This document shows positions 34,096 to 34,134 of a stretch of 64,000 nt of DNA, piece after piece. The stretch is from positions 832,001 through 896,000 of the forward strand of contig CM000434.1 of NCBI GenBank assembly GCA_000165345.1, read 5' to 3'. A model generated the notes under the pieces. That model ran no database searches. It saw only the letters and a list, made by a program, of their open reading frames with translations, and was not told where the DNA came from. A program made the position numbers and the translations under genes. Every line of letters begins with the position of its first letter. Position 1 is the stretch's first letter.

Positions 34096-34134
34096 TGGCG
34101 CCATTTGGTTTGAGCGCCATGTCTCGTTTTTGAG
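34096..34134. promoter_or_regulatory. GGCGCCA plus CATGTCTCGTTTTTGAG element upstream of RPS30
   Basis: GTGGCGCCAT lies at 34096-34105 and CATGTCTCGTTTTTGAG at 34118-34134, which is 266 bp before the RPS30 ATG. A near-identical 17-mer sits upstream of GAPDH at 54095-54111. Confidence 0.5.

What the first reader, a model, noticed from the sequence alone, without database searches (positions are those of the whole stretch)
34096..34134. Shared 17-nt element CATGTCTCGTWTTYGAG at the same distance upstream of RPS30 and GAPDH
The RPS30 upstream region has GGCGCCA (34098-34104), then 13 nt, then CATGTCTCGTTTTTGAG (34118-34134), 266 bp before its ATG. The GAPDH upstream region has GGCGCCA (54079-54085), then 9 nt, then CATGTCTCGTATTCGAG (54095-54111), 272 bp before its ATG.

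Fifteen of 17 positions are identical, with the same orientation and the same partner motif, in front of two very highly expressed housekeeping genes. A shorter echo, TGTCTCGAGAG, lies at 61041-61051, 158 bp before the Rab1 ATG. This may be a core-promoter or initiator-type element of strong constitutive genes.
Basis: seen in the sequence. Interest (0 to 1): 0.55.

Follow-up and report, generated by a model that had tools for sequence, protein, structure and literature searches.

The report
Conserved palindromic promoter element in Cryptosporidium
The shared 17-base word upstream of the ribosomal protein S30 and GAPDH genes of Cryptosporidium parvum is a real promoter element conserved across species, built on the half-site ATGTCTC, which matches an unexplained motif already reported upstream of ribosomal-protein genes; it looks like an upstream factor-binding site, not an initiator.

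Summary
The window is Cryptosporidium parvum chromosome 6.

The within-window match is not significant on its own: a pair this strong is expected about 0.6 times in shuffled intergenic DNA. Orthologous promoters settle the matter.
- **RPS30:** CGCCAT-GTCTC-N6-GAGAC is invariant in eight Cryptosporidium species while the flanks fall to 19-41% identity. In C. ryanae it is a perfect 20-bp palindrome.
- **GAPDH:** TGCATGTCTCG-YW-TTCGAGTA is kept in six species. It is tied for longest parvum/ubiquitum/canis identical block in 5.6 kb of intergenic DNA. It is absent in C. bovis and C. muris.
- **Rab1 "echo":** not conserved, so probably chance.

The half-site RYGTCTC equals "Motif 17" (VYGTCBC) of Oberstaller et al. 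2013, and its complement equals "Motif 10" (RMGACG). Both were enriched only in the ribosomal-protein expression cluster and have no known binding factor. The RPS30 right arm, TGAGACGC, equals the Toxoplasma WGAGACG element.

Best reading: a dyad-symmetric binding site for an unidentified dimeric factor, next to an E2F site and upstream of the start site. The equal distance to the ATG is a C. parvum coincidence. This is a new instance of a known motif with a new architectural detail.

The parts
34119..34138 (.). RPS30 (cgd6_3710) promoter dyad: left arm ATGTCTC (34119-34125), 6-nt spacer GTTTTT (34126-34131), right arm GAGACGC (34132-34138). The GTCTC and GAGAC cores are offset by 11 bp.
   Evidence: GTCTC-N6-GAGAC is invariant in 8 Cryptosporidium species while the spacer varies (GTTTTT, ATTTTT, AAATTT). 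It is a perfect 20-bp palindrome in C. ryanae.
34113..34118 (.). Proximal E2F-like core abutting the dyad. It reads AGCGCC in C. parvum and C. hominis, GGCGCC in C. meleagridis, chipmunk genotype I, C. bovis, C. xiaoi and the DRR768365 species, and CCCGCC in C. ryanae.
   Evidence: E2F consensus from PMC3734150.
34097..34103 (.). It is not conserved in the DRR768365 species or the C. bovis group.
34074..34083 (.). TTACATGCAA, an AP2_1-like (GCATGC-type) box. TTACATGCAA is kept in four of the five aligned species; the fifth (L015) keeps TTACATGCA.
   Evidence: Motif family from PMC3734150.
54092..54113 (+). GAPDH (cgd6_3790) promoter block TTGCATGTCTCGTATTCGAGTA: left arm ATGTCTC (54096-54102), spacer GTATTC (54103-54108), degenerate right arm GAGTA (54109-54113). 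An inner CTCG/CGAG palindrome is present, and the 5' end overlaps a TGCATG AP2_1-type word.
   Evidence: Conserved in C. parvum, C. hominis, chipmunk genotype I, C. ubiquitum, C. canis and C. felis, with only 2 variable spacer positions. Tied for longest exact 3-species block in 5.6 kb of intergenic DNA. Absent in C. bovis and C. muris.
54078..54084 (.). E2F site GGCGCCA upstream of the GAPDH element. The gap to TGCATG varies from 3 to 8 nt between species, and the site reads GGCGGC in C. canis.
54224..54240 (+). ACCCACTTTATTTAGTT, a conserved block 127-143 nt before the GAPDH ATG. It is a candidate initiator (CA followed by a T-rich run, like the T. gondii INR plus downstream T cluster). This is inferred, not shown.
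   Evidence: T. gondii core-promoter description in PMC2920756. Mean C. parvum 5'UTR is 137 nt.
61041..61051 (+). Rab1 'echo' TGTCTCGAGAG. It is not part of the element: the aligned positions in C. ubiquitum and C. canis are unrelated sequence.

Best explanation
The shared word is the left arm plus spacer of a dyad-symmetric promoter element of Cryptosporidium. Two inverted RYGTCTC half-sites are separated by 6 bp, so the GTCTC and GAGAC cores are 11 bp apart, about one helical turn. The element sits beside an E2F/DP site.

The RPS30 promoter carries the full dyad, ATGTCTC-N6-GAGACGC. The GAPDH promoter carries one perfect half-site and a degenerate second one, ATGTCTC-N6-GAGTA.

The most likely mechanism is sequence-specific binding of a still unidentified dimeric transcription factor to double-stranded DNA about 100-200 bp upstream of the transcription start. 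This factor would act together with E2F/DP, and with AP2 factors at GAPDH, to drive high expression of translation-machinery and some glycolytic genes.

Shown here: the sequences, their conservation, the dyad geometry, and the identity of the half-site with published Motif 17 / Motif 10.

Inferred: protein binding, dimer stoichiometry, position relative to the TSS, an activating role, and that the same factor reads both promoters.
For: 1. RPS30 conservation. CGCCAT-GTCTC-N6-GAGAC is invariant in C. parvum, C. hominis, C. meleagridis, chipmunk genotype I, an unidentified species (Logan DRR768365), C. bovis, C. xiaoi and C. ryanae. The core is 76-100% identical while anchored flanks are 19-41% in chipmunk genotype I and all more distant species.
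2. Dyad behaviour. The arms are fixed while the 6-nt spacer changes in sequence but never in length. The right arm varies only as GAGAC-GC/AC/AT, and its complements (GCGTCTC, GTGTCTC, ATGTCTC) all fit one half-site, RYGTCTC. C. ryanae has the perfect palindrome ATGTCTCAAATTTGAGACAT.
3. GAPDH conservation. A 22-nt block is identical in C. parvum, C. ubiquitum and C. canis and is tied for longest such block in 5.6 kb of intergenic DNA. It is also kept in chipmunk genotype I and C. felis with changes only in the spacer.
4. Specificity. GTCTC-N6-GAG occurs nowhere else in the 64-kb window or in the 33 loci then fetched. The only intergenic Motif-17 words in the window are the three half-sites of these two elements.
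5. Literature. VYGTCBC (Motif 17; Z 8.5, robustness 10/10) and RMGACG (Motif 10; Z 6.3) were each found in 63% of the promoters of cluster 6, the ribosomal-protein and translation cluster (PMC3734150). The two motifs are near reverse complements, as a dyad predicts. None of the AP2 domains tested on protein-binding microarrays bound 'Unknown set 1' motifs (PMC4117751).
6. The RPS30 right arm TGAGACGC equals the functional T. gondii WGAGACG / MICA GCGTCDCW element (PMC2688925, PMC4340605, PMC2920756).
Against: - The within-window similarity is not significant by itself.
- RPS30 and GAPDH were placed in expression clusters 11 and 90, not in cluster 6 where Motif 17 was called.
- The GAPDH second arm is only GAG(TA). 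Its conserved inner palindrome (CTCG/CGAG) is in a different register from the RPS30 arms, and its 5' end overlaps a TGCATG AP2-type word. The two blocks could therefore be read by different proteins.
- The GAPDH copy is absent in C. bovis and C. muris. C. muris RPS30 has only a diverged relative, GGCGGTCTTATGTCGTCTTGTTTACTGTCATGAGACGAGC.
- I could obtain no binding, TSS or reporter data, and could do no genome-wide count of the dyad myself.
Confidence: 0.6

Rival explanations
1. These are two different functional elements that share a word by coincidence. The RPS30 block would be an E2F site fused to a GAGAC dyad. The GAPDH block would be an AP2_1-type TGCATG site fused to a CTCG-N4-CGAG palindrome. 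Both would be real binding sites, but for different proteins, so there would be no common 'element of strong constitutive genes'.
For: - A pair this similar is expected about 0.6 times by chance in the window's intergenic DNA.
- The conserved palindrome arms are in different registers: GTCTC/GAGAC with a 6-nt loop, against CTCG/CGAG with a 4-nt loop.
- GAPDH has TGCATG, a documented ApiAP2 site, whereas RPS30 has GCCATG.
- The phylogenetic ranges differ: RPS30 includes the C. bovis group and GAPDH does not.
- The two genes fall in different expression clusters.
Against: - Both blocks keep the same 8-mer, CATGTCTC, invariant in every species that has them.
- Both have GAG exactly 6 nt after it.
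- ATGTCTC occurs in intergenic DNA of the window only at these two sites.
Confidence: 0.22
2. One reading: the element is a core-promoter or start-site-selecting element. It would position RNA polymerase II at or just downstream of itself, as proposed for the WGAGACG-containing repeats of T. gondii SAG1.
For: - Apicomplexan promoters lack TATA boxes, and the related T. gondii WGAGACG word lies in promoter regions of SAG1, GRA genes and DHFR-TS (PMC2920756; PMC4340605).
- 5'UTRs of 250-270 nt are within about 1 SD of the C. parvum mean (137 +/- 116 nt).
Against: - Distance to the ATG varies by about 100 nt between species.
- The element is symmetric, not directional, and in RPS30 it lies in a divergent intergenic region (PUB-domain gene ATG at 33772 on the minus strand).
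- Other conserved blocks lie between it and the ATG, including an INR-like ACCCACTTTATTTAGTT at -143 to -127 of GAPDH and a pyrimidine-rich GAATTTCTTCC at about -65 to -55 (34317-34327) of RPS30.
- PMC2920756 classes WGAGACG as an upstream transcription motif, separate from the INR core element.
Confidence: 0.13
3. The palindrome acts as an RNA hairpin in a 5'UTR, an upstream antisense transcript or a small ncRNA, not as a DNA site.
For: The RPS30 arms can form a 5-6 bp stem with a 4-6 nt loop.
Against: - There is no Rfam match in the window apart from two tRNAs.
- Folding z-scores are unremarkable, -1.6 and -0.8 on the + strand, and the GAPDH minimum-energy fold does not use the CTCG/CGAG stem.
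- Across 8 species the arms never change, so there are no compensatory substitutions.
- The changes that do occur in the outer arm positions (GC, AC, AT) make or break pairing without regard to a stem.
Confidence: 0.04

Closest known systems
C. parvum 'Unknown set 1' motifs: Motif 17 (VYGTCBC) and Motif 10 (RMGACG) of Oberstaller, Joseph & Kissinger 2013 (PMC3734150)
   Same: - ATGTCTC (both promoters) and GCGTCTC (complement of the RPS30 right arm) fit VYGTCBC exactly, and GAGACG fits RMGACG.
- Both motifs were found by FIRE only in cluster 6, which is rich in ribosomal proteins and translation factors.
- No trans-factor is known, and they were not bound by tested AP2 domains.
   Different: - The paper treats them as two separate short words with no stated architecture.
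- Here they are the two arms of one dyad with a fixed 6-bp spacer, abutting an E2F core, and conserved across the genus.
- RPS30 (cluster 11) and GAPDH (cluster 90) were not among the genes for which the motif was called.
Coccidian WGAGACG element / MICA motif GCGTCDCW / GAGACGC (Toxoplasma gondii, Eimeria tenella)
   Same: - The RPS30 right arm TGAGACGC is an exact match to WGAGACG, GAGACGC and the complement of GCGTCDCW.
- In T. gondii the word works in either orientation, often occurs more than once per promoter, and enhances expression in reporter assays (PMC2688925; PMC4340605; PMC2920756).
   Different: - In T. gondii it is linked to dense-granule, microneme, SAG1 and tachyzoite-specific genes, not to ribosomal or glycolytic genes. 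T. gondii ribosomal-protein promoters use TRP-1 and TRP-2.
- No fixed dyad with a 6-bp spacer is described.
- The left arm and the whole GAPDH copy (CGAGACA on the complement) do not fit WGAGACG.
- Common descent of the element or its factor is untested.
E2F/DP sites of C. parvum (TTGGCGCCAA; Motifs 3 and 4)
   Same: It is enriched 20-fold in the window and dominates open chromatin in sporozoites (bioRxiv 10.1101/2025.01.17.633476).
   Different: It is a separate, ubiquitous element. The novel part (GTCTC-N6-GAG) is not an E2F site, and its spacing to E2F differs between the two genes: 2 nt in RPS30 and 9-14 nt in GAPDH.
Metazoan CDE/CHR (E2F-DP plus LIN54 TTYGAA) composite of DREAM targets (comparison from my own knowledge)
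   Same: An E2F-type GC box is followed by a TTYGA-containing word (TTTGAG / TTCGAG).
   Different: The word is TTYGAG, not TTYGAA. The gap from the GC box is at least 10 nt, not 4. The invariant part is GTCTC, which CHR lacks. This is a resemblance only.

Membership tests
C. parvum Motif 17 / Motif 10 (Oberstaller 2013) | Sequence fits VYGTCBC (or its complement RMGACG) in a gene's upstream region | tested here: met
   ATGTCTC at 34119 and 54096, and GAGACGC at 34132 (complement GCGTCTC). These are the only intergenic matches in the window. Consensus.
C. parvum Motif 17 / Motif 10 (Oberstaller 2013) | Gene belongs to the co-expression cluster (cluster 6) in which the motif was called | tested here: not met
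   cgd6_3710 (RPS30) is in cluster 11 and cgd6_3790 (GAPDH) is in cluster 90. This describes where the motif was detected. It is not a requirement for being a site.
Coccidian WGAGACG / MICA GCGTCDCW element | Match to WGAGACG / GCGTCDCW | tested here: inconclusive
   The RPS30 right arm TGAGACGC matches in the C. parvum group. C. bovis (TGAGACAC) and C. ryanae (TGAGACAT) do not match at the last G. The shared left arm (complement CGAGACA) and the GAPDH copy do not match.
Coccidian WGAGACG / MICA GCGTCDCW element | Mutation lowers reporter expression; same trans-factor | not testable with these tools
   This needs C. parvum transfection or protein-DNA binding assays.
Initiator / core-promoter element | Overlaps or lies at a fixed short distance from the transcription start site | not testable with these tools
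   I could obtain no TSS data. The C. parvum rows of the oligo-capped cDNA supplement of PMC2722674 were not in the stored text.
Initiator / core-promoter element | Constrained position relative to the gene across orthologues | tested here: not met
   The distance from the GTCTC core to the ATG is -169 to -264 (RPS30) and -189 to -288 (GAPDH).
Dyad-symmetric (dimeric factor) DNA binding site | Inverted half-sites, fixed spacer length, variable spacer sequence, arms conserved | tested here: met
   In RPS30 the arms are invariant and the spacer is GTTTTT, ATTTTT or AAATTT, always 6 nt, with a perfect palindrome in C. ryanae. In GAPDH the feature is only half met, because the second arm is GAGTA.
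Structured RNA / ncRNA | Rfam match, significant fold, or compensatory base changes | tested here: not met
   No Rfam hit. Folding z-scores were -0.8 to -1.9. No compensatory changes were seen in 8 species.
CDE/CHR composite (DREAM) | CHR TTYGAA placed 4 nt downstream of an E2F-type CDE | tested here: not met
   The word is TTTGAG / TTCGAG, and it starts at least 10 nt after the GC core.

The most novel reading that the evidence does not exclude
RYGTCTC-N6-GAGACRY is the operator of an undiscovered, non-AP2, dimeric transcription factor. This factor would co-operate with E2F/DP to run the 'growth regulon' (ribosomal proteins, translation factors, part of glycolysis) throughout the genus Cryptosporidium. 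It would be the ancestral form of the WGAGACG element of Toxoplasma and Eimeria, that is, an ancient apicomplexan cis-element whose reader is still unknown in any species.
Probability: 0.3. Interest if true: 0.55.

Novelty: new member of a known kind. Interest (0 to 1): 0.4.

Why it matters
Almost nothing is known experimentally about promoters in Cryptosporidium, and transgene design still relies on a handful of empirically chosen upstream regions.

A 20-bp element with an explicit architecture, conserved from C. parvum to the C. bovis group, gives a concrete bait for DNA-affinity purification of the missing factor behind 'Unknown set 1'. It also gives a defined target for promoter mutagenesis in two strong housekeeping promoters.

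It merges two published orphan motifs (10 and 17) into one dyad. It also offers a testable link to the long-orphaned WGAGACG element of Toxoplasma.

The finding is incremental, not surprising: the core word was already reported as enriched upstream of ribosomal-protein genes.

Tried and rejected
- **Within-window statistics as proof:** rejected, because the pair is within chance expectation and ATGTCTC is not enriched.
- **Rab1 echo:** rejected, because it is not conserved in C. ubiquitum or C. canis.
- **5'UTR intron or splice-site reading of the sequence after the RPS30 element (TTTAAGTATAGGTAT):** rejected, because that stretch is not conserved in C. meleagridis, chipmunk genotype I or the DRR768365 species.
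- **RNA family or hairpin:** no Rfam hit and weak folds.
- **TSS evidence:** the C. parvum part of the oligo-capped cDNA table of PMC2722674 is not in the stored supplement. The 2025 review and the ATAC/Iso-seq preprint give no start sites for these genes and no GTCTC motif.
- **AP2 protein-binding-microarray paper:** no GTCTC/GAGAC-type motif.
- **Metagenome scan for CGCCATGTCTCNNNTTTGAGAC:** it returned only contigs of 44-62% G+C, unlike this AT-rich genome and judged unrelated by composition, so it added no Cryptosporidium relatives.
- **Another promoter as a further test case:** the L7Ae-family gene next to the window in C. ubiquitum and C. canis is probably Snu13-type (my reading of the sequence) rather than a ribosomal protein. 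Its promoter has paired E2F sites and no GTCTC.
- **Genome-wide count of the dyad in C. parvum:** not possible.

Full report
**Where we are.** The window is Cryptosporidium parvum chromosome 6.
- The 339-aa ORF at 54367-55386 matches the solved C. parvum GAPDH structures over its full length (1vsu and 3cps, E about 1e-229).
- The regions upstream of RPS30 and GAPDH are 100% identical to GCA_031892065.1 CP029785.1.
- The genes are cgd6_3710 (RPS30) and cgd6_3790 (GAPDH), followed by hexokinase cgd6_3800.
- The RPS30 upstream region is a divergent intergenic region shared with a PUB-domain gene on the minus strand (ATG at 33772).
- The GAPDH upstream region follows a same-strand 209-aa ORF that ends at 53533.

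**The observation.**
- CATGTCTCGTTTTTGAG (34118-34134) and CATGTCTCGTATTCGAG (54095-54111) are present as described, and nothing else in the window comes within 3 mismatches.
- GGCGCCA is at 34097-34103 and 54078-54084, one base lower than reported, so the gaps are 14 and 10 nt.
- The RPS30 ATG is at 34384.
- The distances of 266 and 272 nt from element start to ATG are right.

**Is the pair more than chance?** Not on within-window evidence.
- I compared every pair of 17-mers in the 19.3 kb of intergenic DNA, in both orientations. Matches were scored by information content.
- The observed pair scores 31.9 bits. Dinucleotide-shuffled intergenic sets give 0.6 such pairs on average, and 7 of 20 sets have at least one.
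- ATGTCTC occurs 6 times against 7.8 expected.
- GTCTC-N6-GAG is rarer: 3 matches against 0.63 expected.
- GGCGCC is 20-fold enriched (11 against 0.49). It is the E2F/DP motif reported upstream of about 2,400 C. parvum genes and dominant in open chromatin (PMC3734150; bioRxiv 10.1101/2025.01.17.633476). Sharing it therefore means little.

**Orthologous RPS30 promoters.** I fetched the RPS30 locus from eight species. They are C. parvum, C. hominis, C. meleagridis, chipmunk genotype I, an unidentified species in Logan run DRR768365, C. bovis, C. xiaoi and C. ryanae. C. muris and two Logan contigs encoding the identical RPS30 protein were fetched as well.
- CGCCAT-GTCTC-N6-GAGAC is invariant in all eight.
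- The 29-nt core is 76-100% identical to C. parvum. Flanks anchored on it are 19-41% identical in chipmunk genotype I and all more distant species.
- The spacer is GTTTTT, ATTTTT or AAATTT, and always 6 nt long.
- The two positions outside GAGAC are GC, AC or AT.
- In C. ryanae the site is the perfect palindrome ATGTCTCAAATTTGAGACAT.
- A GC box of E2F type (GGCGCC, AGCGCC or CCCGCC) always abuts the left arm.
- C. muris has only a diverged block, GGCGGTCTTATGTCGTCTTGTTTACTGTCATGAGACGAGC, at -97. It keeps TGAGACG.

**Orthologous GAPDH promoters.** I fetched the locus from C. parvum, C. hominis, chipmunk genotype I, C. ubiquitum, C. canis, C. felis, C. bovis and C. muris.
- TGCATGTCTCG-YW-TTCGAGTA is kept in the first six species.
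- TTGCATGTCTCGTATTCGAGTA (54092-54113) is tied for longest block exactly shared by C. parvum, C. ubiquitum and C. canis in 5.6 kb of intergenic DNA.
- The block lies in an array of other conserved boxes: TTTGCATGTAAA, the E2F site, GATATTGGGGG (G-box-like), ATAGGCGCATGG, TGCACACCA and ACCCACTTTATTTAGTT.
- C. bovis and C. muris GAPDH promoters lack the element.

**Rab1 echo and specificity.** The Rab1 echo aligns to unrelated sequence in C. ubiquitum and C. canis. GTCTC-N6-GAG occurs nowhere else in the window or in the 33 loci then fetched.

**Anatomy.** What the two promoters share is CATGTCTC, then 6 nt, then GAG.
- In RPS30 this is a true dyad of RYGTCTC half-sites.
- The GTCTC and GAGAC cores start 11 bp apart, about one helical turn, so both arms face the same side of the DNA.
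- In GAPDH the left half-site is perfect and the right one is reduced to GAGTA.
- Arms fixed in sequence, a spacer fixed in length but free in sequence, and no compensatory changes all fit a protein-bound DNA dyad better than an RNA stem.
- Rfam finds nothing there, and the folds are unremarkable.

**Comparison with what is known.** Table 1 of Oberstaller et al. 2013 lists Motif 17 (VYGTCBC) and Motif 10 (RMGACG) in 'Unknown set 1'.
- ATGTCTC and GCGTCTC fit Motif 17, and GAGACG fits Motif 10.
- Both motifs were called by FIRE only for cluster 6, each in 63% of its 33 genes. Motif 17 had Z 8.5 and robustness 10/10. Motif 10 had Z 6.3.
- Cluster 6 consists of RPL29, RPS29, RPL11, RPS7, RPS15A, RPS15, RPL40, RPL10A, RPL28, RPL22, RPS26, the acidic ribosomal proteins LP1 and LP2, EF1-alpha, eIF3, eIF2B, tRNA synthetases and Pol II subunits.
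- RPS30 (cluster 11) and GAPDH (cluster 90) were not among the genes called.
- The two published motifs are near reverse complements. The dyad seen here explains why both appear in the same cluster at the same frequency.
- None of the C. parvum AP2 domains tested bound these motifs (PMC4117751), so the factor is unknown.

The RPS30 right arm TGAGACGC is also identical to the T. gondii WGAGACG / GAGACGC / MICA (GCGTCDCW) element. That element is functional in reporter assays and orientation-independent. In T. gondii it belongs to secretory-organelle and tachyzoite genes, and the shared left arm does not fit it. This is a lead, not a demonstrated relationship.

**Initiator or upstream site?** I could obtain no TSS data. 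Indirect evidence favours an upstream site.
- The distance to the ATG varies by about 100 nt among species, so the 266/272 coincidence in C. parvum is not constrained.
- The mean C. parvum 5'UTR is 137 +/- 116 nt (PMC2722674).
- In GAPDH, ACCCACTTTATTTAGTT lies 127-143 nt before the ATG. It resembles the CA-plus-T-run initiator described for T. gondii (PMC2920756).
- In RPS30, a conserved pyrimidine-rich GAATTTCTTCC lies about 55-65 nt before the ATG.
- The element is symmetric, and in RPS30 it sits in a bidirectional promoter.

**Verdict.** Its significance comes from conservation, not from the within-window match.
- It is a promoter element tied to highly expressed translation and glycolytic genes.
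- It is most likely an upstream dyad site for an unidentified dimeric factor next to E2F, not an initiator.
- Its core word is already in the literature as an orphan motif.
- New here are the dyad architecture with a fixed 6-bp spacer, the fusion with an E2F core, the genus-wide conservation at RPS30, and the extension to GAPDH in the parvum-to-felis group.
- My confidence that both sites are functional cis-elements is about 0.85, and that they are one class read by one factor about 0.6.

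Noticed in passing
window 7702-7811, 16294-16377, 50649-50738: A second recurrent composite promoter module clusters within about 100 nt at three sites. It combines TTTGTCCACATG (7702, 16294; inverted as CATGTGGACAAA at 50649), the palindrome ATACCGGTAT (7802, 16368, 50668; also 26252 and 55960), and TTGCATGCA[A/C][T/A]TAC[C/G]TG (16326, 50695, 50722). The sites lie upstream of the + strand ORFs starting at 8490 (WD40), 16627 (thioredoxin fold) and 51783. 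These pairs score as high as the finding itself in the intergenic pair scan.
   Followed up: partly
window 60792-60820: TGCATGTAAACACCGG (also at 36454 as TGCATGTAAATACCGG) runs into AAACACCGGTACGTGGCCTCTA. That 22-nt block is identical in C. parvum, C. ubiquitum and C. canis and lies in the divergent aspartyl-protease/Rab1 intergenic region. It ties with the GAPDH element as the longest conserved intergenic block.
   Followed up: no
window 54138-54240: The GAPDH promoter holds a dense array of further conserved boxes downstream of the element: GATATTGGGGG (G-box-like, 54138), ATAGGCGCATGG (E2F-like, 54168), CTGCACACCA (AP2_2-like GCACAC, 54192) and ACCCACTTTATTTAGTT (candidate initiator, 54224).
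   Followed up: partly
window 163-235 (-) and 35223-35294 (-): tRNA-Gln(TTG) and tRNA-Pro(CGG) genes. The tRNA-Gln gene has a GGCGCC box about 30 nt from its 3' end (131-136). Their shared T-arm gives the top-scoring 'repeat' in the intergenic scan.
   Followed up: no
window 57940-57952: TGGCGCGCGCGCC, an extended alternating GC run overlapping E2F-type cores upstream of the NUDIX_2 (CFIm25-like) gene, is identical in C. parvum, C. ubiquitum and C. canis.
   Followed up: no
L032 20611-21020 and L033 20605-21020 (C. ubiquitum and C. canis, just beyond the window's right end): The L7Ae-family gene (134 aa; probably Snu13/15.5K-type by my reading, not checked) has two closely spaced E2F sites followed by a conserved TACGTGTCAA, and no GTCTC dyad.
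   Followed up: no
L035, L038, L039, L043 (metagenome contigs, 60-62% GC): Unrelated GC-rich, probably bacterial, contigs carry an extended palindrome CCATGTCTCG.(C/T)TTTGAGACATGG, the same arms as the C. ryanae dyad. This is presumably an independent operator or hairpin. Given the composition and context, it has no link to Cryptosporidium.
   Followed up: no
L029 about 2870-2910; L030 and L031 (C. muris and contigs encoding the identical RPS30 protein): The RPS30 promoters of C. muris and the two contigs encoding the identical protein share a conserved block, GGCGGTCTT[A/G]TGTCGTCTTGTTTACTGTCATGAGACGAGC, about 100 nt before the ATG. It has TCGTCT/AGACGA inverted arms at a different spacing, and may be a remodelled version of the dyad.
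   Followed up: partly
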